Assembly: GCA_002790835.1 (NCBI GenBank)
Contig: PFVX01000056.1
Coordinates: 24,508-88,507 of the forward strand
Direction: 5' to 3'
Source of the DNA: a bacterium CG_4_9_14_3_um_filter_65_15
Lineage (GTDB): Bacteria > Krumholzibacteriota > Krumholzibacteriia > LZORAL124-64-63
DNA: 64,000 bases
Shown here: positions 15,516 through 37,279 of the stretch, one piece after another
Layout: every line of letters begins with the position of its first letter
Numbering within the stretch: position 1 is the stretch's first letter
Program-made: the position numbers and the translations under genes
The notes under the pieces: generated by a model
Told to the model about the DNA's origin: nothing
What the model saw: the letters and a program-made list of their open reading frames with translations, nothing else
Databases searched by the model: none

Positions 15516-15734
15516 ATGTCCGATTACAAGGTTCCGATGCCAATGTCCGGGGGAGACAATTTCCCGATGGCGGAGGTCATGACTTCGGTGGAAGCGGCGC
15601 AGTACCTGAAGATGCATGTCAAGACGGTTTGTCGCCTGGCCAAGGAAGGCAAGATCCCCGCCCGCAAGGTCGGCAGCGAATGGCGTTTCCTGCGCTCGGT
15701 GCTCGACGGTTGGTTGGCCGAATCTCTCGTGTGA
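15516..15734 (+). CDS. Excisionase-family helix-turn-helix DNA-binding protein
   Basis: MTSVEAAQYLKMHVKTVCRLAKEGKIPARKVGSEWRF matches the excisionase/MerR-type HTH_17 pattern. A strong SD GAGAGGAG precedes it. Confidence 0.65.
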   Translation: MSDYKVPMPMSGGDNFPMAEVMTSVEAAQYLKMHVKTVCRLAKEGKIPARKVGSEWRFLRSVLDGWLAESLV

Positions 15735-15744
15735 AAGAGGCGTC

Positions 15745-18042
15745 ATGGCCCTGCAGTTTCAACCTCTGAAGCTTCCCGCACCCGACCTGTTCGGCATCGG
15801 ACTGAACGGGTCGTACGGACGCGGCGACAAGACCCACCTGCTCGACCTGGCCCACAAGTGCCTGGCCAAGGACAAGCTGAAGGTCGTGGTCGATGTTTCG
15901 GAGTTGAAGAACCTGGGCGGCGGCGGTGCGGCGGCCTTCGCGGAATTCCAGTCCCTGCTGGTCGAGGCCGGTGGGGAGGCGGTGATTGTCGGTGCGCAGG
16001 ATGTCGTGCTCCGCTTCCTGACCGGAAAGTTCAAGGACCTGCCCCTCCGGCATTTTTCCGATGAAAAATCCGCAGTGGAAGCCCTCACTTCGCTGCCGGA
16101 CACCGCAAGGGAAAAGACAGCGACCGCCGTCGAGGAGGCCCCGGTCGCAGCGGACGACGAGATCGATTTGACGTCGTTCTGCGAAGAGGTGCCCGAACCG
16201 GAACCCCTCGCCGAGGTGGAGGAAGACGAGGACGCCACGAGCCTCGACGAAATCGGGGCGGAAGTGGGGGCGATCGGATTCTCCGCGGAGGAATTCGAAT
16301 TCGACGAGGCCGAGCCCGAGGATTCCACACCCGCCGTCGCGGATGATCCGGCGTCGGATGAGGCGCAGGAGTCGGTGAAGGAGTCGGTCCAGGAGTCGGC
16401 GGACACCACCGCTTCCGGTCGTCGCCGCGAACACAGTTACACTTCGTTGTCCGACGCCATCAGCGCCCTGGGCCGATGGTCGGCCTCCGGTTCGGACGGG
16501 GAATTCGGAAAATCCCTGGAGAACCTCCTGTTCAGCCACGGGCTGGCGGATTCGGCGACCTTCCTGGCGCGACGCGACGACTGCTACACAGACGGCGATG
16601 GACACTGGAGCATCGGGACCGACTGCAGTCTGGTGCGCCAGCTTTTCGATCGGCTGCAACCGCTGACCATTCTGGATATCCAGGACGAGGACCTCACGGA
16701 CCAGGAGGTCTCACTGCTCGAAGGCGTCACACCGGACATCATGTTGCCGGTCCAGAACGAGGGTGAGCCGGGGGCGATCCTCCTGCTCAAACGGGCCGAT
16801 GGCGAGGAGGAATACTCCGTCGTCGAGCACTTCGCCCTCGAACTGCTGATGCGGGTCCTGTCCGGGGAGGAGATGGGCGGATCGCCGGCCAAAGCGGACA
16901 AGGGGTCACCCGCTGTCGCGGCAGCCGATGAATCCGACGCTGATTTCCTGGAACAGGTGGCTTGGACCCGGCCGGCCGCGGGTGACGAAACGCAGGCCGA
17001 GGTGTTGCTCCGGCTGGCGCTCGACCTTCCCGATGCGGAGGATCGTCCCCACTTCTGGCGTATTTTCGCCCGGAACCTCTGGCCCATTCTGCCCATCTCC
17101 ACGCTGGCCTTCCTCGGTCCGGACAAACGTCGGGCGCCCATCATGGTGGGCCGCAACGACGCCTTGGCCGGCATCAACCTGGGCGTCAACCGACTGAAGG
17201 TCTATTTCCAAACCATGGAACGCCCCGTGGCCACGGGCAACCTGCCGGACTTTTTCAAGGACACCAAGTCGTCCCTGCTCGAGGCCGGCGTCGACTGGAT
17301 CATTTCCCTGCGCTGGGAAGACCACTACCTCGGCACGGCGTTCTTCAGCCTGGATGAGGAGTTCGAACAGGTCGAGGACGAGGTGGCCGAAGGAATCAAT
17401 GAACTGTTCGGCGAGACGGCACGCATGCTTTCCCGCTTCGACGATTCCCATGTGAACGCCGACAGCAATCTCGAGCTGGTCGCCATGCTTCTGGGGCAGC
17501 GGGAGAAACGGATGTTCGGCAGCGACGAACAGACGCATTCCATGGTGACTAACCTGCGACGCCTGGCACGGGCCATGGGGTTCCCACCCGACCAGGAGCG
17601 GGACCTGATCTACGGCTGCCTCCTGCGGGATGTCGGGCTCATCGACAAGGACGACGACCTGCTGGGTCCGCCCGAACAGCTGGATCCCGTGCAGTGGTCC
17701 CTTTACCGGCGCCACCCCGAAGAGGGCGCGCGGCTGCTGGAAAAAATGCGGATGTCACCGACTGTCATCGAGGTCGTGCGCCATCACCACGAGCGCTTCA
17801 GCGGGGACGGTTTTCCGGCCGGACTCGAGGGTCGTGAAATCCCTCTGTGTGCCCGGGTGGTCACCGTGGTGGAGAACTACGTCGCCATGGTCGTGGGGAC
17901 GACTGTGCGCGAGCCGGTCGCTCCGGAGGACGCCGCGCGGATCATGCTTGATAATCTGGGTCAGCGCTACGATCCGGACCTGGTGCAGCTTTTCCTGCGT
18001 GCGGTGATGCCGGACCCGGGGCGGGAGCCGGTCCGGGTTTGA
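15745..18042 (+). CDS. Multidomain signalling protein: STAS (anti-sigma antagonist-like) domain, acidic linker, GAF-like domains and a C-terminal degenerate HD-GYP domain
   Basis: N-terminal STAS-like fold, a roughly 100-aa Asp/Glu-rich linker, two GAF-like regions, and a C-terminus VRHHHERFSGDGFPAGL (HD-GYP signature with GDGFP). The HD motif reads LLRDVGL, so the catalytic His is replaced by Arg. It starts 11 nt after the HTH gene. Confidence 0.7.
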   Translation: MALQFQPLKLPAPDLFGIGLNGSYGRGDKTHLLDLAHKCLAKDKLKVVVDVSELKNLGGGGAAAFAEFQSLLVEAGGEAVIVGAQDVVLRFLTGKFKDLPLRHFSDEKSAVEALTSLPDTAREKTATAVEEAPVAADDEIDLTSFCEEVPEPEPLAEVEEDEDATSLDEIGAEVGAIGFSAEEFEFDEAEPEDSTPAVADDPASDEAQESVKESVQESADTTASGRRREHSYTSLSDAISALGRWSASGSDGEFGKSLENLLFSHGLADSATFLARRDDCYTDGDGHWSIGTDCSLVRQLFDRLQPLTILDIQDEDLTDQEVSLLEGVTPDIMLPVQNEGEPGAILLLKRADGEEEYSVVEHFALELLMRVLSGEEMGGSPAKADKGSPAVAAADESDADFLEQVAWTRPAAGDETQAEVLLRLALDLPDAEDRPHFWRIFARNLWPILPISTLAFLGPDKRRAPIMVGRNDALAGINLGVNRLKVYFQTMERPVATGNLPDFFKDTKSSLLEAGVDWIISLRWEDHYLGTAFFSLDEEFEQVEDEVAEGINELFGETARMLSRFDDSHVNADSNLELVAMLLGQREKRMFGSDEQTHSMVTNLRRLARAMGFPPDQERDLIYGCLLRDVGLIDKDDDLLGPPEQLDPVQWSLYRRHPEEGARLLEKMRMSPTVIEVVRHHHERFSGDGFPAGLEGREIPLCARVVTVVENYVAMVVGTTVREPVAPEDAARIMLDNLGQRYDPDLVQLFLRAVMPDPGREPVRV

Positions 18043-18823
18043 CGGGGCGGCTTCGGCGGGGTCCTCTCTCGCCGGACCGGTAGATGCGACCCAGTTCCAT
18101 GGCCAGGTCTTCCTGCGACAGTCCCCGCTTGATCCGTCCGTCGTGCACCACACTGATGGCGCGCGTTTCCTCCGAGACCACGATCACCACACAATCGCTC
18201 TGCTCGGAAATCCCGATGGCTGCCCGGTGGCGAGTGCCCAGCACGTAGCCGAGTTCCTCCTGCTCGGTGATGGGCAGGACGACGGCCGCCGCGGCGATCC
18301 GACCCTGGCTGATGATGACCGCCCCGTCGTGCAGGGGACCGGGCGGGGTGAACACCGTTTCCAGGGTGGCGGCGGTGATTTCGGCATCCAGCAACACGCC
18401 CTTCTGGATCCAGTCGCTGAGTTTCACCTCGCGCTCGATGACGATCAGGGCGCCCAGGCCGCGCTTGCTCAGCCGCTTGGCCGCCTGCAGGATTTCCTCT
18501 TCGGCGGGAATGCGGTCCACGGCCCGGAACATGCCCAGGCCGCGGCGCAGGCCCAGGTTGGTCAGGGCGGAGCGCAGCTCGGGCTGGAAGATGATGATGA
18601 AGGCCACGACCCAGACGGTCTTGAGGGTGCCGATGATGCTTCCGACCACGATCATGCGCAGGTTGGTGGCCAGGAAGGAGAGGATCAGCAGGAAGGCCAG
18701 GCCGGCGAACATCTGGATCACCCGCGTGTCCTTGATGAACACGATGAGGCGGTACAGCAGATACGCCACGATGATGATATCGAGGAGATCGATCAGGGGG
18801 CTTTGGATGATCTTGTTCCACAT
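17942..18823 (-). CDS. cdaA: Diadenylate cyclase CdaA (membrane-bound c-di-AMP synthase) with Pro/Ala-rich C-terminal tail
   Basis: Three N-terminal TM helices (LLDIIIVAYLLYRLIVFI...). DAC-domain motifs LHDGAVII and GTRHRAAIG. A low-complexity C-terminal tail of about 45 aa overlaps the 3' end of the convergent HD-GYP gene by about 100 bp. Confidence 0.85.
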   Translation of the reverse strand: MWNKIIQSPLIDLLDIIIVAYLLYRLIVFIKDTRVIQMFAGLAFLLILSFLATNLRMIVVGSIIGTLKTVWVVAFIIIFQPELRSALTNLGLRRGLGMFRAVDRIPAEEEILQAAKRLSKRGLGALIVIEREVKLSDWIQKGVLLDAEITAATLETVFTPPGPLHDGAVIISQGRIAAAAVVLPITEQEELGYVLGTRHRAAIGISEQSDCVVIVVSEETRAISVVHDGRIKRGLSQEDLAMELGRIYRSGERGPRRSRPVKPGPAPAPGPASPHAGKAAPGPDRSADPDYQA

Positions 18824-26647: not shown

Positions 26648-27322
26648 TCACGCTCCTTCCCGGCGGAGTTGGGTCTCATCCTGGGGTTCGGACAAGAGAC
26701 GGTAAAGCCTCCGTCGCGCCCGGTGCAAACCCGACCGCAGAGTCCCCAGGGGAATCTCGAGACTGGCCGCCGCTTCTTCATAAGGCCAGCCTTCCACGTC
26801 GACCAGCAGGAGGCCGGCCCTCCACAAGGGCGGAAGCTGTTGCAGGGCACGGTCGAGATCGGCCGAAAAGGCGTTGCGGATGATTTCGGGTTCCCAATCG
26901 GGATCCGCCAGGGTGTTCTCCACCGCCCAATCCGCATCGGCGTCCCACTGGTCTTCCGGACGGGCTCGGAGTTGGCGCCAGTGGTCACGGCAGGTGTTGT
27001 GAACGATGCGGGCCAGCCAGCTGCGGCCGTTGCTGCCGGGCGTGAAATTGCCGAATCCGCGCAGAGCCTTGATGAAGGCTTCCTGGGCCACGTCCTTTGC
27101 ATGGTCCCCACCGGCGCAGACACTGCACGCCATGCGATACAGCACGTCGAGGTGGGGCATGATCTCCGCATCGAAGCGGAGTCGGTCTTGTGGTGAGAGG
27201 TACGGATCCAAGGTGCACGGTCCAGGCAAAAGGTGAACCCGAAATTCCAACCCTTCAAGCTTAACGCATTTGCCGCCACTTGTCGCATACTCCTGTGTCG
27301 CCGGGCCGGGATTCGATGTCAC
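26648..27322 (-). CDS. RNA polymerase sigma-70 factor, ECF subfamily
   Basis: Region 2 DRLRFDAEIMPHLDVLYRMA...VAQEAFIKALRGF. Region 4 EAAASLEIPLGTLRSGLHRARRRL. The true start may lie downstream of 27322. Confidence 0.8.
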   Translation of the reverse strand: MTSNPGPATQEYATSGGKCVKLEGLEFRVHLLPGPCTLDPYLSPQDRLRFDAEIMPHLDVLYRMACSVCAGGDHAKDVAQEAFIKALRGFGNFTPGSNGRSWLARIVHNTCRDHWRQLRARPEDQWDADADWAVENTLADPDWEPEIIRNAFSADLDRALQQLPPLWRAGLLLVDVEGWPYEEAAASLEIPLGTLRSGLHRARRRLYRLLSEPQDETQLRREGA

Positions 27323-27379: not shown

Positions 27380-27991
27380 CTAGCGGAACAGGGCCTTGAC
27401 CTGGGACCAGCTGCGGTCCTCGTTGGCCACCACGTCACCGCTGGGCTCGACCTTGCCGTCCCACATCTCGGTATAGCCGGGTTCCACCAGGTCGGCGTTG
27501 CGGTACACCGCGACCAGGAACGGCCATCCGGTCTGGTCCGCGGGGGCCAGGTCGTTCAACCGCGCGCCGCTGTTCCAGTCCACGTAGCCGTTGGCCGAAC
27601 CGAGGGTTCCGAGCAGCATGGTGTGGGTCAGGGAAGTCAAGACCCCGCCCAGGATCATGGCACCGTCACGGAAAGTGGAGGGATTGGCATAGTCCGCCGC
27701 CGTGGACGCATCCTCGTAGATGGCCACGAACCCTCCGCTGTACACGTCGGAGGCACCGCTGCCGGTCAGGGTCAGGCCGGTCACGACCAGGGTGTACTGG
27801 GCGCCGGGGGTGTTCAGAGGCAGCGGTGCTTCCGGTGCGTCACCGTTGAGAATAATCCCGTAGGCCACGGCATCCTGGCCGACGGCCGCAGGCAGCACCG
27901 CTTGCCCCGTGAAATCGAAGAACTGGACGGCTTGGGCTCCCGTCGCTAGGACGGAAAGGAGCAACAGGCTGACGATGGCAATTGTCTTCAT
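27380..27991 (-). CDS. Secreted hypothetical protein, paralog A
   Basis: Signal peptide MKTIAIVSLLLLSVLATGAQA. SD GGAGGA. Similar in length and C-terminal W-containing motif to paralog B. Confidence 0.5.
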   Translation of the reverse strand: MKTIAIVSLLLLSVLATGAQAVQFFDFTGQAVLPAAVGQDAVAYGIILNGDAPEAPLPLNTPGAQYTLVVTGLTLTGSGASDVYSGGFVAIYEDASTAADYANPSTFRDGAMILGGVLTSLTHTMLLGTLGSANGYVDWNSGARLNDLAPADQTGWPFLVAVYRNADLVEPGYTEMWDGKVEPSGDVVANEDRSWSQVKALFR

Positions 27992-28025
27992 GGCATTCTT
28001 CCTCCGCGGAATTCGGGTTAAGCGC

Positions 28026-28703
28026 CTAGTTGCCGGCGCTGAACTGGGATTTGAGATCGCCCCAGCTGATGTTTTCGTTGTCCACCGCGGAATCGACATC
28101 CAGGATGCCGTCCACCTGCAGATCGTAACCCGCGGGGATGTTGGCTCCGGTCAGGTCGTTGAAGGTCCCGGCGATGGTGTAGGAGCAGTCCGAACAGGGG
28201 CCGGCCAGGGCCGTGCCGCCGGTGGCGTCGATGGTGCCCTGGAACACGCCGCTGCCGGAAGCCTGCATGACCAGCGTGAACGAGGTGAAGTCCCCCATGA
28301 AGACAAGGTCGCCGTCGATAAACGTGGACGGAGCGGTCGGGTTCGGCGGGGAAACACCCCAGTCGTGGTTGTGATCGAAGGATGCGTACACGGCGATGGT
28401 GCCGCCGGTGTAGAGGGTTGTGGCGGTGCCGGTCGTCTGGTTGACGGTGGCGCCCTGACTGACCAGGCCCTCGATAAAGAGGGTTGCTTCCTGTGTGCCG
28501 AGGTCGACCTGGAACAGCGGGTCGATCTGACTGACGGTGCAGGCCACCGCCAGCTGATCGCCCGGATCGCTGGGCACCAGACCACCGGTTTCATAGGCGT
28601 AGCCGACGTAATCGACGACGGCCGCGGCGGCGCCCCGGACGGCGAATACGCCGATGGCCAGCACGCTCAATGCGATGACGGATCCCTTCAAGCCTTGCTT
28701 CAT
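28026..28703 (-). CDS. Secreted hypothetical protein, paralog B
   Basis: Signal peptide MKQGLKGSVIALSVLAIGVFAVRGAAA. SD GGGAGG. Shares architecture with paralog A (Gly/Thr-rich, C-terminal ...SWGDLKSQF versus ...SWSQVKALF). Confidence 0.5.
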   Translation of the reverse strand: MKQGLKGSVIALSVLAIGVFAVRGAAAAVVDYVGYAYETGGLVPSDPGDQLAVACTVSQIDPLFQVDLGTQEATLFIEGLVSQGATVNQTTGTATTLYTGGTIAVYASFDHNHDWGVSPPNPTAPSTFIDGDLVFMGDFTSFTLVMQASGSGVFQGTIDATGGTALAGPCSDCSYTIAGTFNDLTGANIPAGYDLQVDGILDVDSAVDNENISWGDLKSQFSAGN

Positions 28704-29087
28704 GGACTCTTGCCTCCCTGATGATTGCTTTGTCCCGGATGGCGACACCCGGGACGGGGCGATTGCGGGTTACGGGGGGACAACGGAGGGGAGAGGGCGG
28801 AAAGTTCCTGAAAGAGGATAAAAATTAGAAATATTTATAACTTCAATATATTCAACAAGTCACGTCCCTCGAGATTCCGGTCGACTCCGTGCCCGAGAGC
28901 TGCGGCACCGGAATCGACGCCCGCAGGACAGCCGCCGATAGGCGCCGAGACGGCCGCGTCGCCCACGCCGCCAACGCCGCCCACGCCGCGGCGGCGAACC
29001 TCCCGATTCCTTCATTGACGGGGCCACGGCGATTGGCCAGTTTAGACGCGATTCCAACTCGGTTCCCCCCGATCATCGAGGCATGTC

Positions 29088-31175
29088 GTGGCAACCCCGT
29101 CCTACAGCCGTATTCGACGTACCCTGTTCCGGCTCGTGGAGCGCTTCGAGCCCGACGAGACCACCATCATGGTGGTCATCGCGGTATTGGTCGGCGTGGC
29201 CGGTGGTTTCGGAGCCATCCTGTTTCGTTGGCTGGTGAACTTCTTCCAGGGTTTCGTTCTCGGCCAGGGGGAAAGCACGGTGGAGCTTCTTTTGGCCGTG
29301 CCCTGGTGGCACAGGCTCTTGCTGCCCGTGCTGGGGGGGGTGATCGTGGGTCCGTTGGTGTATTTCGGGGCTCCGGAGGCCAAGGGCCACGGAGTCCCCG
29401 AGGTGATGAACGCCATGGTATTCAAGAAAGGCGTGATCCGGCCCATCGTCGCGGCGGTCAAGATCCTCGCCAGCGCCATCACCATCGCCTGCGGCGGTTC
29501 GGTGGGGCGGGAGGGGCCCATCGTGCAGATCGGCGCCGGCATGGCCAGCACCATCGGCCAGTGGCTGCGGTTCTCACCCCAACGCCTGCGGACGCTCATC
29601 GGCTGCGGCGCCGCCGCCGGCATCGCCGCCACCTTCAACGCTCCCATCGCCGGGGCCTTCTTCGCCCTGGAAATCCTCATGCGGGATTTCGCGTTGGTGA
29701 CCTTCAGCCCGATCATCGTCTCCAGCGTGGTGGCCACGGCCATCAGCCGCGAGTTCCTGGGGGCCAATCCCTCCTTCATGGTACCTGATTTCGCCATGGA
29801 GAGTTCTCTGGAGCTTCCCTTCTACCTGCTGCTGGGGCTTCTGGTGGGGCTGGTGGCCATGGTCTACGTGCGCACCCTCTACGCCTCCGAGGGATTCTTC
29901 GACCGGCTGCGGATTCCCTCCTGGAGCAAGCCTGCCCTGGGGGGAGTGGCCCTCGGTCTGCTTTTGATCTGGTTCCCGCAGGTTTACGGCGTGGGGTATA
30001 GCTCCATGGTCCACGCCCTCAACGGGAACATGGCCCTGGGGCTGATGGCCTTGCTGGTGGTCGTCAAGTTGGTGGCGGTGGACCTCACCCTGGGCTCGGG
30101 AGCCTCCGGCGGGATCTTCGCTCCGGCTCTGTACCTCGGGGGCATGACGGGCGGAGCCTTCGGCGCGGCCCTGCTCTTCCTCTTTCCCGGGGCCCATCAT
30201 GCGGTGGGAACTTTCGCCATGGCCGGCATGGCCGCCATGGTGGGTGCGGCCACCGGCGGGCCGCTGACGGCCATCCTCATTCTTTTCGAGATGACCGGCC
30301 AGTACCAGGTGATCCTGCCGCTGATGCTCGCGAGCATCGGCGCGGCCTTGACCTACCGCACCCTGATGGATGAGACCATCTTCACCCTGAAATTCGCCCG
30401 TCAAGGCAGACAGATCCACTTCGGCCGCGAGAGCGCCATCCTGCGCAATTTCCACGTCCAGGACATCATGGAGGTCAATCCCCATACGGTTCGCCAGGGC
30501 GATGGACTCGACCGCATTCTCAAACTCTTTTTGGACAACAAGGACGACCACTATTACGTCGTGGACGAGGCCGGAGGGCTCATCGGGCTGATTTCCATCC
30601 ACGACATCAAGGATCTGCTGCACGAGGATGGGTTGGGAAAATTCCTCATCGCCGAGGACATCCACACCCCGGCGGGGGATTTCGTGTACCGCCGTGACAA
30701 CCTCGAGGATTGCCTGCTGAAGCTCGGCAAGCTGGACCACACCGATCTGCCGGTTCTTTACAGCCCGGAAAAACCCGTGCTGGTGGGCCTGATCACGCGG
30801 CAGTCCATCTTCGAAATCTACAACCGCGAGGTGCTGCACCAGGAGGATATGGGCATCAAGCTGGTCACCGGCGAGGGTCGCATGCACGACTGCGTCGAGT
30901 TGCCGGAGCAGTACAAGGTGCAGCTCTTCGTGCCCCCGGTGGAATGGGAGGGCAGGACCCTGCAGGAGTTGGCCCTGCGGCCCCGCTACGGGATCTCGGT
31001 TCTGGCGGTCAAACAACGCAATTACCTGGGTGGTCTGGAGAATCGCATCCCGGACCCCGGGCAACCCCTGAGACCGGGGGACCGCCTGATCATCGTGGGT
31101 GAGGTTGGGGCCCTGGAACGGCTCCTTCAGGAAACCAACACTTCCTCATTTGCTCCCGGTGGGCAGGAATCGTGA
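29088..31175 (+). CDS. ClC-family chloride channel/transporter with C-terminal CBS pair and TrkA-C domain
   Basis: ClC selectivity motifs GGSVGREGP and GIFAPALYLGG, about 10 TM helices, then CBS domains and a TrkA_C-like end. GTG start. Confidence 0.8.
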   Translation: MATPSYSRIRRTLFRLVERFEPDETTIMVVIAVLVGVAGGFGAILFRWLVNFFQGFVLGQGESTVELLLAVPWWHRLLLPVLGGVIVGPLVYFGAPEAKGHGVPEVMNAMVFKKGVIRPIVAAVKILASAITIACGGSVGREGPIVQIGAGMASTIGQWLRFSPQRLRTLIGCGAAAGIAATFNAPIAGAFFALEILMRDFALVTFSPIIVSSVVATAISREFLGANPSFMVPDFAMESSLELPFYLLLGLLVGLVAMVYVRTLYASEGFFDRLRIPSWSKPALGGVALGLLLIWFPQVYGVGYSSMVHALNGNMALGLMALLVVVKLVAVDLTLGSGASGGIFAPALYLGGMTGGAFGAALLFLFPGAHHAVGTFAMAGMAAMVGAATGGPLTAILILFEMTGQYQVILPLMLASIGAALTYRTLMDETIFTLKFARQGRQIHFGRESAILRNFHVQDIMEVNPHTVRQGDGLDRILKLFLDNKDDHYYVVDEAGGLIGLISIHDIKDLLHEDGLGKFLIAEDIHTPAGDFVYRRDNLEDCLLKLGKLDHTDLPVLYSPEKPVLVGLITRQSIFEIYNREVLHQEDMGIKLVTGEGRMHDCVELPEQYKVQLFVPPVEWEGRTLQELALRPRYGISVLAVKQRNYLGGLENRIPDPGQPLRPGDRLIIVGEVGALERLLQETNTSSFAPGGQES

Positions 31176-31222
31176 GGGGTGGCGGTTGTTTTGCTCGTCT
31201 CCGGGGAGCGGTAGCATGGCAA

Positions 31223-31259
31223 GAGAAAGCGGACCCTTCGCCCTGAGGTCCGCTTTCTC
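31223..31259 (+). terminator. Perfect 13-bp-stem hairpin downstream of the ClC gene, possible terminator; a T7 run follows ~45 nt later
   Basis: gagaaagcggacc / ggtccgctttctc with an 11-nt loop. No immediately adjacent U-tract. A second weak structure and TTTTTTT lie at about 31285-31310. Confidence 0.35.
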
Positions 31260-31396
31260 GTCTCGCCCGTGCCATGTTCGCTGGAAAAACGCATGTTTTC
31301 GCTTTTTTTCCGTTCGAGAAGATCCTGTTGTCTTCTCCCGATGAAGGGATATACGATGCCCGAAACGGAAAGTTCCCCACTTTTTGCGGGAGGATC

Positions 31397-32902
31397 ATGA
31401 ACCCCCTGAACGTCCTGATGGTGGCCGCGGAATACGCCCCTCTGGCCAAGGTGGGTGGGTTGGGCGACGTCACCGCCGCTCTGGCCGATGCGCTTGTGGC
31501 GCGGGGCCACCGGGTCAAAATCGTGCTGCCCCTGTACCGGGATCTGGACCGGGACCGGCTGGGTCTGCGCCCCCTGCGGAAATTGCCGCCGCTGGCGGTG
31601 CGGGTGGGCGACCGGATGCACGACATCCGGTTTTTCGTGGTGGGGCGCGGGTCGGGTCGGCTCCAGGTCCTGTGCGTGGAATGCGAATCCCTGTTTGGGA
31701 GGCCGGGCATCTACACCGATGCGGGCGGCGCGGATTTTTCCGACGCCGTCCGGCGATGGGCACTGCTGAGCCGGGCGGCCCTGCTCTTGCCCCGGGCGCT
31801 GGAATGGCCGGTGGACATCATCCACGCCCACGATGCCCAGGCCGTACCGGTGTTGCTGAACCGCCGGCTCTGGTATGCCGGTCGCGATTTTCCCGGGCCC
31901 GCGGCGACGGTTTTGACGATCCACAATCTCGCACACCAGGAGATCCACCCCGTGTCCGCGGCCGAGGACCTGGGTTTGCCTTCAAGCCAGGCCGTGTATC
32001 CGGGTTTGCTGGAGTACCACGGCCAGGTGAACCTCCTGAAGGCGGGGATCCTGGCGGCCGATCGGGTCAATACCGTCAGTCCGGGATATGCGCGGGAAAC
32101 CGTGACGGACGCGAGCCTGGGATGCGGCCTGCAGAGTGTCCTGGCCGGACGCGGCAAGGCGTATGAGGGCATTCTCAACGGGACCGACTATCGGATCTGG
32201 GATCCTGCCCGCGACTCCTCCCTGCCCGCCGCATTCTCGGTGAACGACCTGGCCGGCAAGGAAACCTGTCGCCGCGAATTGCTGAAGCAGTTCGGCTTGA
32301 AGCCGGCCAATGGCCGCGACGGCCGCCCGGAACGGCCGGTTTGCGGGTTCGTCGGTCGTCTCGTCACCCAGAAGGGTGTGGACCTGCTGGCTCCCGTCCT
32401 GCCCCGTCTGGCGGCGGACGGATTCACCTTCGTCGTTCAGGGCACGGGGGAATCGCGCCTGGAAGCGACCATGACCGATCTGGCCGGGCGCTATCCCCGG
32501 AACATCGCCTTTTGCGACCGCTACGACGAAGCCTTGGCTCACCGGATCTATGCCGGATCCGACGTTTTCCTGATGCCCAGCCTGTTCGAACCCTGCGGGC
32601 TGTCCCAGATGTACGCCCTGCGCTACGGCACACCTCCGGTGGTGCGCGCGACCGGAGGACTCGTCGATACGGTCACGCCATGGAACGATTCCGCGGCTAC
32701 CGGTTTTGTCTTCTCCGCTCCCACCAGCGAGGGCCTGCTGGCGAGTTTGCGACAGGTGGAAAAGGTCTGGCGGGACCCCGCGGCCTGGCGCAAGCTCCAG
32801 ATGCGCGGCATGAAGGCCCGCTTCGATTGGTCCACGGCCGCGGGGCATTACGAGCAGCTCTACCAGGCGGCGTTGTCCCGACGCGAGGAGTCCCTGCCAT
32901 GA
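31397..32902 (+). CDS. glgA: Glycogen synthase (ADP-glucose type)
   Basis: N-terminal AAEYAPLAKVGGLGDV motif, about 500 aa. SD GGGAGGA. Confidence 0.9.
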   Translation: MNPLNVLMVAAEYAPLAKVGGLGDVTAALADALVARGHRVKIVLPLYRDLDRDRLGLRPLRKLPPLAVRVGDRMHDIRFFVVGRGSGRLQVLCVECESLFGRPGIYTDAGGADFSDAVRRWALLSRAALLLPRALEWPVDIIHAHDAQAVPVLLNRRLWYAGRDFPGPAATVLTIHNLAHQEIHPVSAAEDLGLPSSQAVYPGLLEYHGQVNLLKAGILAADRVNTVSPGYARETVTDASLGCGLQSVLAGRGKAYEGILNGTDYRIWDPARDSSLPAAFSVNDLAGKETCRRELLKQFGLKPANGRDGRPERPVCGFVGRLVTQKGVDLLAPVLPRLAADGFTFVVQGTGESRLEATMTDLAGRYPRNIAFCDRYDEALAHRIYAGSDVFLMPSLFEPCGLSQMYALRYGTPPVVRATGGLVDTVTPWNDSAATGFVFSAPTSEGLLASLRQVEKVWRDPAAWRKLQMRGMKARFDWSTAAGHYEQLYQAALSRREESLP

Positions 32903-34671
32903 TCGACGAAGGTGCCGGTCGCCCCGAAGCCGAAATCCTCTCGGCGGCTTTCTACCAGAGCCCGTTGCCGCTGATCGTGGTTGCCGACGGAGGGACGGTC
33001 TCGGCCGTCAGCCATGAGGCCTGCGCCTTGATGGGTCTGTCCCGCGAAGAACTTCTGGGCAGGTCGGTGAACGGATATTTCCTGCCCCAGCTTCCCATCG
33101 GGCGCTGCTTCGAACTCAAGGAATGCCTGGACCAGCGCTGTCGCCGGGAAATGCTTCCGGGCCGTGGCGACCCCATCCCGGTGGAGATCCTGTGCCGGCC
33201 CTTCCGGGTCGGCAGCGACGAGGGCGAGGATCTGGAAACGGAATACAACCATTGCCTGCTGTACATCTCCGACACGCGCAAACGGGACTACGAGGACGAG
33301 CTGCGCGCGGCCCGAGTGGCCAAGCTGTCCCTGTTGAATCAGGTGAGTGAAGCCCTCTACGGCGCGAATCTGACCCTGGACCAGGTCCTGGAGGCGGTGC
33401 TGATCTGCATCACCGCCGGCCAGGGGTTGCGGTTCAACCGGGCGTTCCTGCTGCTTGTGGACGAAGAGGTGGGGGTGATGCGGGGCGAGATCGCCATCGG
33501 GCCCAGCGACCAGGACGAGGCCGGTCGGATCTGGACCGACCTCTCCCATCAGCCCGAAGACCTGTTCTCCATGATGACCAGCTACGACCAGTCCATCAAG
33601 CAGACCGATGCGGCGGTCAACGCCATCGTCAAGACCATGAGCGTTTCCCTATCGGACCACGACAACGTTCTGGTGCGCAGCATGGAGGAGCGCCAGGCCA
33701 TCCGCATTACCCCGGACATGGATCTGCCGGGCGTGGCGGCCATCAGGCAATGGCTCGGCTGCGACTGTTTCGCCGTCGCACCCTTGATGACGCGCAGCGG
33801 CATACTGGGCGCGATCATCGCGGACAACGCCATCAGCGGCCAGCGGATCACGGATCTGGATCTGGAATTCCTGCAACTTTTTGCCAACCAGAGCGCCAGC
33901 GCCATCGAAAACAGCCGCCTCTACACCGAACTGGAAAGGCGGCTGATCGATCTGCGCCAGGCCCATCAGAAACAGCGGGAGCACCAGGAGACCCTGCTGC
34001 GCATGGAACGCCTGAGCGTCATGGGCGAGACCTCGGCCATCGTGGCCCACGAGCTGCGCAACCCCCTGGTGGCCATCGGGGGGTTCGCCCGCGCCCTGGT
34101 GCGCAACCTCGATCAGGACGACCCCAACCACAGGTATGCCGGCATCATCACCGAAGAGGTCTCGCGGATGGAGACCATCATCCACGACCTCCTGGACTTC
34201 ATCCGGCCGCAGAAACTCCAACGCAAGGTGGTGGTCGTCGATGACCTGGTGACCGCCACGGTGGAACGTTTCGGGGGAGAGATCCAGGCCAAGGGGATTG
34301 AACTCGCCCTGGACCTGCAAGCCGGAGGGGCCAAGGTATCCTGCAATCCCATCGAGATCCAGCAGGTGCTGCAGAACTTCCTGGTCAACGCCATGCAGGT
34401 CATGCCGGAAGGGGGAAGCATCGAAGTGCGTACCCGCCAGGTCACCGGCGGTGTTCAGGTCGAGGTCTGCGATACTGGTCCGGGAATTGCAGAAAACATG
34501 AGCGACAAGCTGTTTGCGCCGTTTTTTACCACGAAACCGACCGGTAGCGGACTGGGATTGACCATCTGTCAGCAGATCATCAAATCCCATGGTGGAGTGG
34601 TGGGAGTGCGCAACCGCACGGAAAAAGGAGCCGGTTTTTCGTTCATCCTCCCCCTTCCCAAGGATTCCTGA
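32899..34671 (+). CDS. Cytoplasmic sensor histidine kinase (PAS-GAF-HisKA-HATPase_c)
   Basis: PAS-like N-terminus, a GAF region, H-box AHELRNPL, and an ATPase G-boxes region CDTGPGI...GSGLGLTI. No TM segments. The ATG overlaps the glgA stop (ATGA). Confidence 0.8.
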   Translation: MIDEGAGRPEAEILSAAFYQSPLPLIVVADGGTVSAVSHEACALMGLSREELLGRSVNGYFLPQLPIGRCFELKECLDQRCRREMLPGRGDPIPVEILCRPFRVGSDEGEDLETEYNHCLLYISDTRKRDYEDELRAARVAKLSLLNQVSEALYGANLTLDQVLEAVLICITAGQGLRFNRAFLLLVDEEVGVMRGEIAIGPSDQDEAGRIWTDLSHQPEDLFSMMTSYDQSIKQTDAAVNAIVKTMSVSLSDHDNVLVRSMEERQAIRITPDMDLPGVAAIRQWLGCDCFAVAPLMTRSGILGAIIADNAISGQRITDLDLEFLQLFANQSASAIENSRLYTELERRLIDLRQAHQKQREHQETLLRMERLSVMGETSAIVAHELRNPLVAIGGFARALVRNLDQDDPNHRYAGIITEEVSRMETIIHDLLDFIRPQKLQRKVVVVDDLVTATVERFGGEIQAKGIELALDLQAGGAKVSCNPIEIQQVLQNFLVNAMQVMPEGGSIEVRTRQVTGGVQVEVCDTGPGIAENMSDKLFAPFFTTKPTGSGLGLTICQQIIKSHGGVVGVRNRTEKGAGFSFILPLPKDS

Positions 34672-34804
34672 TTGGTCCGGATGTTTATTTATCATGGACT
34701 GCGGAGATCAACTGGCATCATCCCGGGTGATTTGTTAAGGTGTGATGGGAGCTTGAGGAGAATGCCCTGAACGGGTAGGGTGGATGGACGCAGGAGGCAA
34801 AATT

Positions 34805-35176
34805 ATGAGCAGGATCCTCATTGTCGATGATGAACCCCACCTGCGATTGCTGTACGAGACGGAATTGCGGCGTGCCGGGTTCGAGACCATGACCGCTTCC
34901 AATGCGGTGCAGGGGCTCGAATTCGTAGAGACCATGGAGCCCGATCTTGTTATTCTCGACATCCGGATGGCGGGAATGGACGGGATCGAGGCCATGCAGC
35001 ACATCATGGAACGCGATCAGCGGGTCCCCGTCATTCTGAACACGGCCTTTTCGAGTTACAAGGACAACTATCTGACCTGGGCCGCGGACGCGTACCTGAC
35101 CAAATCGTCTGACGTCACCGAGCTGGTGGAAACCGTTAAGCAGGTTCTGGAGAAGCAGGCCACCGCCCACGGTTGA
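34805..35176 (+). CDS. Single-domain response regulator (CheY-like receiver)
   Basis: ILIVDDEPHLR...DLVILDIRMAGMDG... SD AGGAGG. Confidence 0.8.
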   Translation: MSRILIVDDEPHLRLLYETELRRAGFETMTASNAVQGLEFVETMEPDLVILDIRMAGMDGIEAMQHIMERDQRVPVILNTAFSSYKDNYLTWAADAYLTKSSDVTELVETVKQVLEKQATAHG

Positions 35177-35234
35177 CGACGGCTCCCGATCTGGTTGACG
35201 CATCGCCCGTGGCTGCAACCGTGGAGCCTGACCC

Positions 35235-36479
35235 TTGAGCATTCGCAAACTTGTGCGGGGTACGCTGACCCTCATCCTGGCGGGCGGCCAGGGCCAGCGC
35301 CTGTATCCCCTGACGCGTGACCGTTCCAAGCCTGCCGTTCCCTTCGGCAGCGCCTACCGGATCATCGACTTCACCCTCAGCAATTGCATCAACAGCGGGC
35401 TGCGGCAGATCTACGTCCTGACCCAGTACAAATCCTTTTCCCTGGACCAGCATCTGCAGCGGGGTTGGAACATCTTCAGCTACGAGGCCGGAGAGTTCCT
35501 GTACCGGATCCCGCCCCAGCATCGGGTCGGGCAACGCTGGTACGGGGGCACCGCAGACGCCGTCTACCAGAACATCTACCTGCTGGAAAACCGCAAGCCC
35601 GATCACGTGCTGATCCTCTCGGGCGACCACATCTACCGCATGGACTACGGCAAGCTCCTGGAGTTCCACGCCGGCCACAAGGGGTGCATGAGTCTGGCGG
35701 CCGCGGTCGTGCCGCGGCAGGGCGCCGCGGAGTTCGGGATCCTGGAGGTGGATGAGACCTGGAAGGTGGTGGGCTTCGCGGAGAAGCCGGCCAATCCCAA
35801 GACCATTCCCGGTGACCCCGACCATTGCCTGGTGAACATGGGGGTCTACATCTTCGAGACCGCCGACCTGGTGCGCGAACTCAGTCAGGACGCCCGCATT
35901 CCCGACAGCCACCATGACTTCGGCAAGAACATCATTCCCCAGCTGGTGGACAAGGGTGAGGTCTACGCCTACCCCTTCCGGGCTTCGGACACCCATGAGC
36001 CTCGCTACTGGCGGGACATCGGCACCCTGGACAGCTACTACGAGACCACCATGGATCTGGTGAGCCGGAAGCCCCGTTTCGATCTCTACGACCCCCGCTG
36101 GCGCTTCCGGGCCTGGCAACCGCCGGTCCCGCCGTTCAAGTCCGCCCACGGGTTCACCGAGGACGGCAAGTTGCCGGGCGTGGTGGCGGATTCCATCGTG
36201 GGCGGGGGAACCGTCATCTCCGGCGGCCACGTCGAACATTCGGTCCTGGGCCGCAGCGTGCGGGTCAATTCCTACAGCAGCGTAACCGAGAGCATCCTCA
36301 TGGACCACGTGCAGGTCGGCCGTTACGCCAAGGTGCATCGCTGCATCATCGACAAGAACGTGATCATTCCCGAGGGGATGGAAATCGGCTTCGACCGCGC
36401 CAAGGACGAAAGCATGTTCACGGTCTCGGACGGCGGCGTGGTGGTCGTGCCCAAGAACATGGACCTGAGCGAGGTTTAA
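35235..36479 (+). CDS. glgC: Glucose-1-phosphate adenylyltransferase
   Basis: LILAGGQGQRLYPLTRDRSKPAVPFGSAYRIIDFTLSNCINSG is the canonical GlgC N-terminus, with a C-terminal left-handed beta-helix. TTG start inferred. Confidence 0.85.
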   Translation: MSIRKLVRGTLTLILAGGQGQRLYPLTRDRSKPAVPFGSAYRIIDFTLSNCINSGLRQIYVLTQYKSFSLDQHLQRGWNIFSYEAGEFLYRIPPQHRVGQRWYGGTADAVYQNIYLLENRKPDHVLILSGDHIYRMDYGKLLEFHAGHKGCMSLAAAVVPRQGAAEFGILEVDETWKVVGFAEKPANPKTIPGDPDHCLVNMGVYIFETADLVRELSQDARIPDSHHDFGKNIIPQLVDKGEVYAYPFRASDTHEPRYWRDIGTLDSYYETTMDLVSRKPRFDLYDPRWRFRAWQPPVPPFKSAHGFTEDGKLPGVVADSIVGGGTVISGGHVEHSVLGRSVRVNSYSSVTESILMDHVQVGRYAKVHRCIIDKNVIIPEGMEIGFDRAKDESMFTVSDGGVVVVPKNMDLSEV

Positions 36480-37279
36480 AGCCGGTATTGGTCCGGTCGC
36501 CGGTCGCCGAAGATGTGGTTGCGCGGAGTCACCTGCTGGACGATGTCGGCGAGGTCGATGGCGGCGGTGGCCGCACCCTCGCTCTCGCGATCCAAGCGGG
36601 TCAGGACGTCTCCGAGGGGTGAGACGATCTGGCTCATGCCGATGAACTCCAGACTCTGGCCGGTGCGGCACTCGCTGCCGATGCGGTTGGCGGTGACGGC
36701 GAAGACCCGGTTCTCCTGACAGCGGGTCACCATGGCCGCGGGGCACCAGGGCAGGATCAGGTTCGAGGGGTGGCACAGGATCTGTGCGCCGGCCAGGGCC
36801 AGTGAGCGCCCCGCTTCGGGAAAAAGCCAATCGAAGCAGATCATCATGCCGATCCGCGCGCCGCAGGCCGTCACCACGCCGAACCCCCGGTCGCCTGGTT
36901 GAAAGATCTCCTTTTCCCGATCGAAGAGATGGACCTTGCGGTAGATCTCCCGGCTGCCGTCGGGGCGCACGAGGATGGAACTGTTGTAGACATGGTCGGC
37001 TGATTTTTCCGCGAGACCGGCGACGAGGGTAGAGCCCGTGGCCGCGGGTTTTGCCGTCAAGGCGGTGGTGATCGGACCGCCCGCCCCCCCGGGGGCGGCC
37101 TCCTCGGCGACGGCGGCGGCTTCGGCCGGGTCGCGGAACTGGTAGCCGGTGGCGAAGAGCTCGGGCAGAACGACCAGATCGCAATCGGCGGGGACGAGGT
37201 CCAGGGCGCGCACGAGATTGCCGCGGATGTCACCGAACACCGGCTGTGTCTGGACGGCTGCGATGGTCAGGCTGCTCAC
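36476..37279 (-). CDS. Carbon-nitrogen hydrolase family protein (nitrilase/amidase-like)
   Basis: ...LPELFATGY... and a catalytic Cys context ...MMICFDWLFPE... GTG start with SD GAAGGAG. Confidence 0.75.
   Translation of the reverse strand: MSSLTIAAVQTQPVFGDIRGNLVRALDLVPADCDLVVLPELFATGYQFRDPAEAAAVAEEAAPGGAGGPITTALTAKPAATGSTLVAGLAEKSADHVYNSSILVRPDGSREIYRKVHLFDREKEIFQPGDRGFGVVTACGARIGMMICFDWLFPEAGRSLALAGAQILCHPSNLILPWCPAAMVTRCQENRVFAVTANRIGSECRTGQSLEFIGMSQIVSPLGDVLTRLDRESEGAATAAIDLADIVQQVTPRNHIFGDRRPDQYRL

What the first reader, a model, noticed from the sequence alone, without database searches (positions are those of the whole stretch)
31397..36479. Two-component system (cytoplasmic PAS-GAF histidine kinase + CheY-like regulator) embedded between glgA and glgC, with the kinase start overlapping the glgA stop
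Seen in sequence:
- glgA stops at TGA 32900-32902 while the HK ATG is at 32899.
- The single-domain response regulator and glgC follow on the same strand.
- The HK has no TM segments.

Established knowledge: glgC and glgA are usually contiguous.

Inference: a soluble sensor kinase is co-translated with glycogen synthase. This suggests post-translational or chemotaxis-like signalling tied to carbon-storage state.
Basis: partly seen in the sequence, partly recalled or inferred. Interest (0 to 1): 0.5.

Follow-up and report, generated by a model that had tools for sequence, protein, structure and literature searches.

The report
Sensor kinase pair inside glycogen-synthesis operon
In this uncultured Krumholzibacteriota bacterium and in every relative examined, a soluble sensor kinase and its small partner protein lie between the two key glycogen-making genes, which suggests but does not prove a dedicated signalling switch for carbon storage.

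Summary
glgA (31397-32902), a soluble PAS-GAF histidine kinase (32899-34671, ATGA overlap with the glgA stop), a 123-aa receiver-only response regulator (34805-35176) and glgC (35235-36479, TTG start) lie on one strand with no terminator between them.

It is not an assembly artefact. All 14 orthologous loci examined (Krumholzibacteriota MAGs and metagenome contigs, kinase 56-82% identical) keep glgA-HK-RR-glgC.

Three qualifications apply:
- The start/stop overlap is not conserved; the gap ranges from -14 to +47 nt.
- A conserved sigma-70-like promoter motif lies between kinase and regulator, giving two sub-units, glgA+HK and RR+glgC.
- The surrounding ~20 kb is also syntenic across the phylum, so conserved order alone is weak proof of a functional link.

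The regulator is closest to Thermotoga TrrA (43% identity), not CheY. The nearest non-orthologous kinase/regulator pairs lie in flagellar gene clusters. A covarying hairpin marks the upstream operon boundary.

Most likely reading: a cytoplasmic metabolic sensor whose phosphorylated receiver acts by protein contact on glycogen synthesis. This is inferred, not shown. I found no published description. Moderately interesting; a new variant of known kinds.

The parts
31223..31259 (+). Conserved hairpin at the upstream boundary of the glg operon. It has a 13-bp stem (GAGAAAGCGGACC / GGTCCGCTTTCTC) and an 11-nt conserved loop (CTTCGCCCTGA). It is probably an insulating terminator for the upstream gene; a regulatory role is not excluded.
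   Evidence: Present at the same position in 10 of 12 relatives that have upstream DNA, whichever gene precedes it (ClC, methyltransferase or deacetylase). 92% of cells are paired and 9 of 13 pairs carry compensatory changes; 0 of 500 shuffles reach this, and slid controls give 31-55% (for 8 sequences). It is single-copy in the window. A covariance model finds it only there in about 400 kb of sequence. No Rfam match.
31328..31357 (+). Candidate promoter P1 for glgA (TTGTCT-N18-TACGAT), followed by a conserved AAAGTTCCC box and a T-run in the leader.
   Evidence: The block GAAGATC(A/C)TGTTGTCT...GATATACGATG...AAAG(G)TTCCC is conserved between the window and L001-L003. TACG and AAGGTTCC boxes recur upstream of the GalT-like gene in more distant loci. 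This is inferred from sequence only; the consensus scanner found no promoter here.
31397..32902 (+). glgA, ADP-glucose-type glycogen synthase (501 aa).
   Evidence: Pfam PF08323 (E 5e-61) plus PF00534. NCBIfam TIGR02095 scores 470 bits against a cut-off of 328. GGGAGG Shine-Dalgarno precedes ATG 31397.
32899..34671 (+). Soluble sensor histidine kinase (590 aa) with the order PAS, linker helix, GAF carrying a helical insertion, DHp (HisKA) and catalytic domain. Its start overlaps the glgA stop (ATGA).
34713..34741 (+). Conserved sigma-70-like internal promoter motif P2 in the kinase-regulator spacer: -35 TGGCAT, 17-nt spacer, TG-extended -10 TAAGGT, 63 nt upstream of the regulator start.
   Evidence: T[GT]GC-N19-TAnnnT is found in 12 of 15 spacers (14 of 15 with one relaxed position), 53-66 nt from the regulator start (79 nt in one locus), against 0.11 expected from shuffles. 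The motif was defined after seeing the data and the sequences are related, so the P-value is only indicative. It fell below the threshold of the consensus scanner.
34805..35176 (+). Stand-alone receiver response regulator (123 aa, TrrA type); predicted phospho-acceptor D52.
   Evidence: Pfam Response_reg only (E 1e-25). D8, D9, D52, T80, Y97 and K100 are present. Best solved relative is T. maritima TrrA, 43% identical and gapless over 115 aa. Orthologues are 65-91% identical, and 114 of the 120 listed are exactly 123 aa, the rest 120-146 aa with only a Response_reg hit.
35235..36479 (+). glgC, glucose-1-phosphate adenylyltransferase (414 aa), with a TTG start codon. Its stop overlaps the stop of the convergent CN-hydrolase gene by 4 nt.
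   Evidence: Pfam. NCBIfam TIGR02091 scores 463 against 425, and NF001947 scores 537 against 470. Colinear with E. coli GlgC (5l6s), E 5e-115. The start codon is non-ATG in 15 of 15 loci: 13 TTG and 2 GTG. The overlap with ORF 36476-37279(-) is seen.

Best explanation
This is the glycogen-synthesis locus of an uncultured Krumholzibacteriota bacterium. A cognate two-component pair is a fixed, co-expressed part of the locus.

Shown:
- The four genes are real, lie on one strand and are tightly spaced.
- Their order is conserved in every orthologous locus examined.
- The kinase is cytoplasmic and has all catalytic motifs.
- The regulator is a phosphorylatable receiver with no output domain.
- A conserved promoter-like motif precedes the regulator and glgC.
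- A covarying hairpin marks the upstream boundary of the locus.

Inferred mechanism:
1. The kinase's strongly conserved GAF domain, with or without the variable PAS domain, senses an intracellular metabolite or an energy or redox cue.
2. The kinase phosphorylates D52 of the receiver, or dephosphorylates it through its HExxN motif.
3. Because the receiver has no effector domain, its phosphorylated form acts by direct protein contact. The most economical targets are the co-expressed enzymes: GlgC, the rate-setting step, or GlgA.
4. Glycogen synthesis is thereby tuned after translation.

The layout pairs the sensor with glgA (promoter P1, sometimes translationally coupled) and the regulator with glgC (read-through plus P2, with a weak non-ATG glgC start). 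This would keep signalling and enzyme levels in proportion.
For: - Anatomy and domains.
- Catalytic and phospho-acceptor residues are invariant.
- Soluble kinase.
- glgA-HK-RR-glgC is kept in 14 of 14 orthologous loci down to 56% kinase identity, while flanking genes come and go (ClC, methyltransferase, deacetylase, GalT-like, HNH, GT4).
- Junctions are always short and no terminator-like site lies inside the block.
- The regulator is unusually conserved (65-91%, against 56-82% for the kinase and 48-71% for GlgA) over its whole surface.
- In a profile search of 1.84 billion representatives, the orthologous kinase group collapses to essentially one 50% cluster (407 bits, then a gap to about 220 bits). 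It is therefore a distinct lineage-specific orthologue group tied to this context.
- The nearest other kinase/regulator pairs (29-41% identity) have no glg genes within 6 kb.
Against: - The whole ~20 kb region is syntenic across the phylum, from the M16 peptidase to pyrC and including functionally unrelated genes. Conserved order therefore does not by itself show a functional link.
- No interaction, phosphotransfer or expression data exist.
- GlgC looks like an ordinary allosteric enzyme, colinear with E. coli GlgC, with nothing that marks a docking site.
- The nearest paralogous modules lie in flagellar clusters, and at least one Krumholzibacteriota MAG encodes flagella and chemotaxis genes (PMC10936416). 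A motility target is therefore possible.
- The P2 motif means the regulator need not be co-regulated with the kinase.
Confidence: 0.5

Rival explanations
1. The pair reports on, rather than controls, glycogen synthesis. The stand-alone receiver passes the signal to a distant target. Candidates are a phosphorelay (Spo0F-like, via an Hpt protein, to a DNA-binding regulator), the flagellar motor, or c-di-GMP/PilZ machinery as in its paralogues. Placement in the glg operon would then only ensure co-expression with carbon storage.
For: - After TrrA, the receiver's best solved relatives are Spo0F proteins.
- The closest non-orthologous kinase/regulator pairs (L019, L020, L022, L026) lie among genes for a FliA-like sigma factor, PilZ, FlgN, FliW and FapA.
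- Flagellar and chemotaxis genes are reported in a Krumholzibacteriota MAG (PMC10936416).
Against: - No Hpt, che, flagellar or PilZ gene is present in the 64-kb window.
- The orthologous group is never found outside the glg context in 14 loci.
- CheY itself is a poorer match than TrrA or Spo0F.
Confidence: 0.25
2. There is no functional link. An ancestral insertion of a two-component pair between glgA and glgC has simply been inherited, because gene order in this chromosomal region is unusually rigid in the lineage. The pair would regulate something unrelated.
For: About 20 kb around the locus keeps the same order across the phylum: Flavin_Reduct, cupin, M16, ClC, methyltransferase, deacetylase, GalT-like, the four-gene block, CN-hydrolase, GT4, Dus, TPR, ABC and pyrR-pyrB-pyrC. 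This is true even at 58% kinase identity. The internal promoter P2 could make the regulator transcriptionally independent.
Against: - Flanking genes show gains and losses, but the four-gene block never does.
- Junctions are operon-like (-14 to +47 nt; 35-91 nt) with no terminator, and the start and stop overlap in three lineages.
- P2 drives the regulator together with glgC, not the regulator alone.
Confidence: 0.15
3. Control is at the RNA or transcription level through unseen partners. The conserved upstream hairpin with its conserved loop, the GGA-rich regulator leader and the non-ATG glgC start would be the real regulatory devices (for example a CsrA-like or other RNA-binding protein). The receiver would act as a connector or anti-adaptor for that factor.
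For: - The hairpin has a covarying stem and a conserved 11-nt loop, which is more than a plain terminator needs.
- GGA count in the regulator leaders is 43, against 23 expected.
- glgC has a non-ATG start in 15 of 15 loci.
- CsrA homologues exist in the phylum (PMC13443453).
Against: - The GGA excess is mostly the Shine-Dalgarno sequence and is not significant in most loci.
- The regulator 5' leaders are not more structured than shuffles.
- The hairpin loop has no GGA.
- The cited paper predicts few functional CsrAs in this phylum.
- No Rfam family matches.
Confidence: 0.1

Closest known systems
ThkA/TrrA of Thermotoga maritima (TM1359/TM1360; PDB 3A0R, 3A0U, 3A0T)
   Same: A cytoplasmic PAS-containing HisKA kinase paired with a receiver-only regulator of about 116-123 aa. 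The regulator here aligns to TrrA without gaps over 115 residues at 43% identity, including the short alpha4 segment TA(F/Y)SxY(K/R)...(T/S)WAAD(A/E)Y..KS. The ThkA catalytic domain superposes at TM 0.88 and 33% identity.
   Different: The kinase here has an extra, highly conserved GAF domain with a helical insertion. It lies inside a glycogen operon. The physiological role of ThkA/TrrA is, to my knowledge, unknown, so the resemblance gives no function.
GAF-kinase plus stand-alone receiver modules in flagellar late-gene clusters (metagenome loci L019, L020, L022, L024-L026)
   Same: Kinases of about 600 aa with the same extended GAF, HisKA and HATPase order (29-41% identity), followed directly by a receiver 39-45% identical that shares the S(S/T)YK..(F/Y)..W motif.
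   Different: Their neighbours are genes for a FliA-like sigma factor, PilZ, GAF-HisKA proteins, FlgN, FliW and FapA. No glg genes lie within 6 kb. They are paralogues, not orthologues.
Classical bacterial glycogen regulation (E. coli glgBXCAP: allosteric GlgC, CsrA on the glgC leader, PhoP/PhoQ and ppGpp effects)
   Same: glgC and glgA are linked and co-expressed. GlgC is the same enzyme type (E 5e-115 to 5l6s, colinear).
   Different: In the E. coli paradigm the regulators are encoded elsewhere, and glgC and glgA are adjacent (this rests on established knowledge, not on a test here). Here a dedicated kinase/receiver pair separates them. I found no paper describing a two-component system embedded in a glg operon.
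Spo0F and CheY (stand-alone receivers)
   Same: A single REC domain with the full D-D-D-T-K set. Output must be by protein contact or phosphotransfer.
   Different: No Spo0B/Hpt gene and no che or flagellar gene in the window. CheY proteins score far below TrrA (E 1e-10 to 1e-14, against 1.5e-23).
GAF domain of PtsP / enzyme I-Ntr (PDB 3TRC)

Membership tests
HisKA-type (class I) sensor histidine kinase | H-box with phospho-acceptor histidine in a DHp helical hairpin | tested here: met
   HisKA E 1.5e-13. H384 in HELRNPL is invariant in 44 orthologues. A long helix 319-403 plus helix 409-435 is present in the model.
HisKA-type (class I) sensor histidine kinase | Bergerat-fold ATP-binding domain with N, G1, F and G2 boxes | tested here: met
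   HATPase_c E 6e-25. N493/N497, D525-G527-G529, F542 and G549-G553 are invariant. Foldseek finds ZraS, HK853, ThkA and CckA cores.
HisKA-type (class I) sensor histidine kinase | Autophosphorylation and phosphotransfer to the adjacent regulator | not testable with these tools
   This needs biochemistry. Only adjacency and co-conservation in 14 of 14 loci support a cognate pair.
Stand-alone receiver response regulator (TrrA / Spo0F / CheY class) | REC fold with acidic pocket, phospho-Asp, and switch Thr/Ser, Tyr/Phe and Lys | tested here: met
   Response_reg E 1e-25. D8, D9, D52, T80, Y97 and K100 align with CheY and Spo0F.
Stand-alone receiver response regulator (TrrA / Spo0F / CheY class) | No output domain | tested here: met
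   The ORF is 123 aa and ends at TGA 35174-35176. Of 120 orthologue clusters, 114 are exactly 123 aa and the rest are 120-146 aa; all carry PF00072 only.
Chemotaxis CheY proper | Encoded with, or functionally tied to, cheA/cheW/MCP genes | tested here: not met
   No che, MCP or flagellar gene was found among the ORFs annotated across the 64-kb window, nor in the flanks of the orthologous loci.
Chemotaxis CheY proper | Closest sequence relatives are CheY proteins | tested here: not met
   TrrA scores E 1.5e-23 and Spo0F 1e-19 to 1e-16; CheY entries score 2e-14 to 2e-10.
Spo0F-type phosphorelay intermediate | A partner histidine phosphotransferase (Spo0B/Hpt) and a terminal regulator | tested here: inconclusive
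   No Hpt domain was found in any annotated ORF of the window. The rest of the genome could not be searched.
Glycogen synthase GlgA (ADP-glucose type) | Passes the curated family model | tested here: met
   TIGR02095 scores 470.2 bits against a cut-off of 328.45, end to end.
Glucose-1-phosphate adenylyltransferase GlgC | Passes the curated family model and is colinear with solved GlgC | tested here: met
   TIGR02091 scores 462.8 against 424.9; NF001947 scores 536.8 against 470. E. coli GlgC 5l6s scores E 5e-115 over residues 4-409.
CsrA-controlled glgC-type leader | GGA motifs in a hairpin loop and over the Shine-Dalgarno sequence | tested here: inconclusive
   43 GGA against 23 expected in 13 regulator leaders, one per leader being the Shine-Dalgarno itself; only 3 loci reach P<0.05. 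The leaders are not unusually structured.
Known cis-regulatory RNA (Rfam) | Match to any of 4227 covariance models | tested here: not met
   No hit at gathering score in the window. Only chance-level hits (E >= 0.18) occur around 31100-31450, and none in 34600-35300.

The most novel reading that the evidence does not exclude
The phosphorylated stand-alone receiver is a direct protein effector of ADP-glucose pyrophosphorylase or of glycogen synthase. The kinase's conserved GAF domain would read a central-carbon or energy metabolite. That would make this a two-component system that gates a storage-polymer pathway after translation, with no transcription factor involved. It would be a regulatory layer for bacterial glycogen synthesis distinct from GlgC allostery and CsrA.
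Probability: 0.25. Interest if true: 0.7.

Novelty: new variant of a known kind. Interest (0 to 1): 0.42.

Why it matters
Bacterial glycogen synthesis is usually described as controlled by allosteric effectors of GlgC and by global regulators encoded elsewhere.

A dedicated cytoplasmic sensor kinase and an output-less receiver that are fixed parts of the glgA-glgC locus throughout a candidate phylum point to a different way of linking cell state to carbon storage. It would also give a physiological context to the TrrA-type receivers, whose function is, as far as I know, unknown.

The hypothesis can be tested with four recombinant proteins, without culturing the organism.

If the link proves to be only inherited gene order, the locus is still a useful caution. 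Phylum-wide synteny can come from a generally rigid neighbourhood rather than from function.

Tried and rejected
1. Rfam at gathering score on the whole window, and at permissive E-values on the two intergenic regions, gave nothing credible.
2. The consensus promoter/terminator scan found no promoters and no terminator within the block. The conserved P2 motif and the hairpin lie outside its thresholds (9 of 12 matches; loop of 8 nt or less) and were found only by comparing loci.
3. CsrA lead: the GGA excess in the regulator leader is weak. Not adopted.
4. A structured 5' leader for the regulator is not supported. MFE z-scores run from -2.1 to +0.8 and are mostly near 0.
5. Ligand of the GAF or PAS domain:
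   - The full-length fold search returned only kinase cores.
   - The C-x6-C-x4-C run in the PAS domain is conserved only in the window's own subclade. It is not treated as a cofactor site.
6. Searching with the regulator to find regulator-glgC pairs outside the phylum failed. The 120 listed hits are all orthologues at 76% identity or more.
7. The single-sequence genome-contig scan returned only three orthologous loci.
8. A second loop-like match at 45582 is within chance expectation (about 1 per strand) and lies in a different hairpin. It was rejected as a second copy.
9. One search used a structure string mis-registered by two columns, which was my error. One search is the valid count.
10. 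I considered predicting a regulator-GlgC complex. The structure tool takes one chain and returns no interface metrics, so it was not attempted.
Full report
**1. What is there**

| Gene | Coordinates | Notes |
|---|---|---|
| glgA | 31397-32902 | stop TGA 32900-32902 |
| Histidine kinase | 32899-34671 | ATG 32899, so the two genes share ATGA; GAGGAG Shine-Dalgarno 10-15 nt upstream of the ATG (32884-32889) |
| Response regulator | 34805-35176 | 133 nt after the kinase; AGGAGG Shine-Dalgarno |
| glgC | 35235-36479 | 58 nt after the regulator; TTG start |

All four genes are on the + strand. A ClC channel gene with CBS and TrkA_C domains ends at 31175 upstream. Downstream, a convergent CN-hydrolase gene overlaps the glgC stop by 4 nt.

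Pfam and NCBIfam confirm the enzymes. GlgA scores 470 bits on TIGR02095 (cut-off 328). GlgC scores 463 on TIGR02091 (cut-off 425). The kinase has the order PAS-GAF-HisKA-HATPase_c, and the regulator is a receiver domain only.

The kinase has no hydrophobic segment. The strongest 19-residue window (1.65) lies on two beta strands of the GAF core in the AlphaFold model. The consensus scanner finds no terminator-like site inside the block.

**2. Whose genome, and is the arrangement real?**

The kinase has hundreds of full-length relatives of about 590-600 aa at 58-82% identity. Where they are named, they come from Krumholzibacteriota/Krumholzibacteriia MAGs (locus titles).

I recovered 14 orthologous loci:
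- L001-L003 from genomes;
- L010-L012, L093 and L094 from contigs carrying listed homologues;
- L013-L018 from metagenomes.

Every one has glgA-HK-RR-glgC on one strand. Misassembly is therefore excluded.

Identity to the window:

| Protein | Identity range |
|---|---|
| Regulator | 65-91% |
| GlgC | 69-91% |
| Kinase | 56-82% |
| GlgA | 48-71% |

Most relatives also have a GalT-like (GalP_UDP_transf/DUF4921) gene abutting glgA upstream. The window's subclade has lost it.

**3. An important caveat**

The conserved order is not confined to the four genes. About 20 kb is colinear across the phylum:

Flavin_Reduct, cupin, M16 peptidase(-), ClC, methyltransferase, polysaccharide deacetylase, GalT-like, **glgA-HK-RR-glgC**, CN-hydrolase(-), GT4(-), Dus, TPR, ABC, pyrR-pyrB-pyrC.

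Synteny alone is therefore weak evidence for function. What distinguishes the block is that flanking genes are gained and lost (ClC, methyltransferase, deacetylase, GalT-like, HNH, CN-hydrolase, GT4, TPR), whereas the block is never interrupted and keeps operon-like junctions.

**4. Fine structure of the operon**

- *glgA to kinase.* The distance is -4 (ATGA) in the window, L001 and L017, and -14 in L010. Elsewhere it is +1 to +47 nt. Translational coupling is possible here but is not a conserved feature.
- *Kinase to regulator.*
  - The spacer is consistently long, 84-160 nt, and 32 nt in L018 only.
  - It contains a conserved sigma-70-like motif: -35 T(G/T)GC(A/G)N, a 17-nt spacer, and -10 TAnnnT, often preceded by TG.
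  - The motif lies 53-66 nt before the regulator start (79 nt in one locus).
  - It occurs in 12 of 15 spacers strictly and 14 of 15 with one relaxed position. Shuffles give 0.11 expected.
  - The pattern was defined after looking at the data and the loci are related by descent, so the statistic is indicative only. The positional conservation in otherwise diverged spacers is clear.
  - In the window the motif is TGGCAT (34713-34718)-N17-TAAGGT (34736-34741).
- *Regulator to glgC.* The spacer is 35-91 nt. glgC starts with a non-ATG codon in all 15 loci: 13 TTG and 2 GTG.

The locus therefore reads as two nested units:
- P1 drives (GalT-like)-glgA-HK.
- Read-through plus P2 drives RR-glgC.

**5. 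Upstream boundary**

- *Conservation and covariation.* A hairpin at 31223-31259 has a 13-bp stem and the loop CTTCGCCCTGA. It lies just after whichever gene precedes the glg operon in 10 of 12 loci that have upstream DNA. The stem covaries: 92% of cells are paired, 9 of 13 pairs carry compensatory changes, 0 of 500 shuffles reach this, and slid controls give 31-55%. The loop stays nearly constant.
- *Uniqueness.* It is single-copy in the window. A covariance model finds nothing else in about 400 kb apart from a borderline variant at the same place in L010. Rfam has no match.
- *Interpretation.* Its position 0-60 nt after the upstream stop codon, and its A-tract/U-tract flanks, fit an insulating terminator. 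The conserved loop is not explained by that role.

**6. The proteins**

*Kinase.*
- In an alignment of 44 orthologues the N-terminal PAS domain (residues 1-125) is poorly conserved.
- The linker, the GAF domain and the DHp domain are almost invariant.
- All catalytic boxes are invariant, as is the HExxN phosphatase motif. A bifunctional kinase/phosphatase is expected from established knowledge of HisKA kinases.
- The AlphaFold model (pLDDT 76.5) gives PAS 7-125, a helix, GAF 160-340 with a helical insertion at 205-246, a continuous signalling helix into DHp, and the catalytic domain.
- A profile of this GAF searched against 1.84 billion representatives returns essentially one orthologous cluster (407 bits). 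After a gap to about 220 bits comes a large family: 566 clusters at E<1e-30, many in kinases of about 600 aa or in multi-GAF giants.

*Regulator.*
- It has D8, D9, D52, T80, Y97 and K100.
- It is 43% identical, without gaps, to T. maritima TrrA, the partner of the soluble PAS kinase ThkA. Spo0F comes next and CheY well behind.
- No curated NCBIfam equivalog fits either protein.

*GlgC.* It is colinear with E. coli GlgC and shows no special feature.

**7. Relatives outside the orthologous group**

The next-closest kinases (29-41% identity, same GAF-HisKA-HATPase layout, about 600 aa) are also followed by a TrrA-type receiver (39-45% identical). They have no glg genes nearby.

In L019, L020, L022 and L026 their neighbours are genes for a FliA-like sigma factor, PilZ proteins, GAF-HisKA proteins, a small MCP-signal-like protein, FlgN, FliW and FapA.

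The module family therefore seems to belong to flagellar late-gene clusters, and the Krumholzibacteriota orthologue is the one found in a glycogen operon. The window has no flagellar or che genes. A published Krumholzibacteriota MAG does have them (PMC10936416).

**8. Interpretation**

Shown:
- a complete and apparently functional cognate two-component pair, cytoplasmic, with an output-less receiver;
- it is co-oriented and co-located with glgA and glgC across a phylum.

Inferred:
- the pair controls glycogen synthesis;
- the phosphorylated receiver does so by binding GlgC or GlgA.

My estimates:

| Claim | Probability |
|---|---|
| Some functional link to glycogen metabolism | about 0.6 |
| Direct regulator-enzyme mechanism | about 0.25-0.3 |

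The rivals cannot be excluded with sequence data. They are a relay to a distant target including motility, inherited order without function, and RNA-level control through the hairpin or leader.

**9. Literature and novelty**

Full-text searches found no description of a two-component system embedded in a glg operon. The searches combined:
- glgA, glgC, histidine kinase and response regulator;
- Krumholzibacteriota and glycogen;
- single-domain response regulator and glycogen;
- glg operon and two-component.

The ThkA/TrrA papers retrieved are structural.

All the parts are ordinary. The association, its internal promoter layout and the boundary hairpin are new as far as I can tell. I rate it a new variant of known kinds and moderately interesting (0.42).

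Noticed in passing
L010 5442-6524, L011 5430-6440, L012 5433-6494, L013 ~3408-4442, L017 ~3413-4408, L018 ~521-1516, L093 7519-8529, L094 7267-8514; absent from window 31176-31396: Most relatives have a GalT-like gene (PF01087 GalP_UDP_transf with weak DUF4921 hits) abutting or overlapping the start of glgA. It is probably the first gene of the operon. The window's subclade (window, L001-L003) lacks it. In addition, the window has lost the methyltransferase, deacetylase and GT4 genes that are found at this locus in other members.
   Followed up: partly
window 35235-35237 and the equivalent position in 14 loci: glgC starts with a non-ATG codon in all 15 loci (13 TTG, 2 GTG), behind a GGAG Shine-Dalgarno. 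A rare start codon kept across a phylum suggests that translation of the rate-setting enzyme is deliberately held low or is regulated.
   Followed up: partly
window 36476-36479: glgC(+) and the convergent CN-hydrolase gene(-) overlap by 4 nt at their stop codons (TTTAA), which leaves no room for a terminator. glgC transcripts would run antisense into the hydrolase gene.
   Followed up: no
window 8533-9909 (+), with 2672-3745, 3682-4737 and 4746-5306: A protein with the QTMAN_N domain (N-terminal domain of tRNA-queuosine alpha-mannosyltransferase, E 6e-59) plus a GT1 domain lies close to QueG, a radical-SAM gene and QueF. It is a bacterial homologue of the eukaryotic queuosine-glycosylating enzyme in a queuosine gene neighbourhood.
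   Followed up: no
window 15616-18042 (+) and 17942-18823 (-): An 808-aa protein with a C-terminal HD_5 domain converges on, and overlaps by about 100 nt, a CdaA-type diadenylate cyclase gene. This may be a c-di-AMP synthesis/degradation pair. c-di-AMP would be one candidate ligand class for the kinase's GAF domain, but nothing links them.
   Followed up: no
window 26648-27322 (-), 27380-28099 (-), 28026-28748 (-): An ECF-type sigma factor lies next to two similarly sized (about 240 aa) proteins that have N-terminal hydrophobic segments and no Pfam match.
   Followed up: no
kinase residues 205-246 (window about 33511-33636): The GAF domain carries an insertion of about 40 residues whose sequence is nearly invariant in orthologues (DLF.MMTSYDQSIKQTD.AVN). 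AlphaFold models it with low confidence (pLDDT 41-54). It may be a lid or a docking segment.
   Followed up: partly
window 31260-31285 and equivalents: Downstream of the hairpin, one or two further copies of a TCGCC-like pentamer recur in most loci (for example CTCGCC and GTTCGC). They echo the TTCGCC of the hairpin loop. I did not test this statistically.
   Followed up: no
window 1458-2555 (+): A multihaem cytochrome (paired CXXCH motifs, weak MtrC/MtrF-like domain hit) lies next to a PMT_2-type glycosyltransferase at the window start.
   Followed up: no
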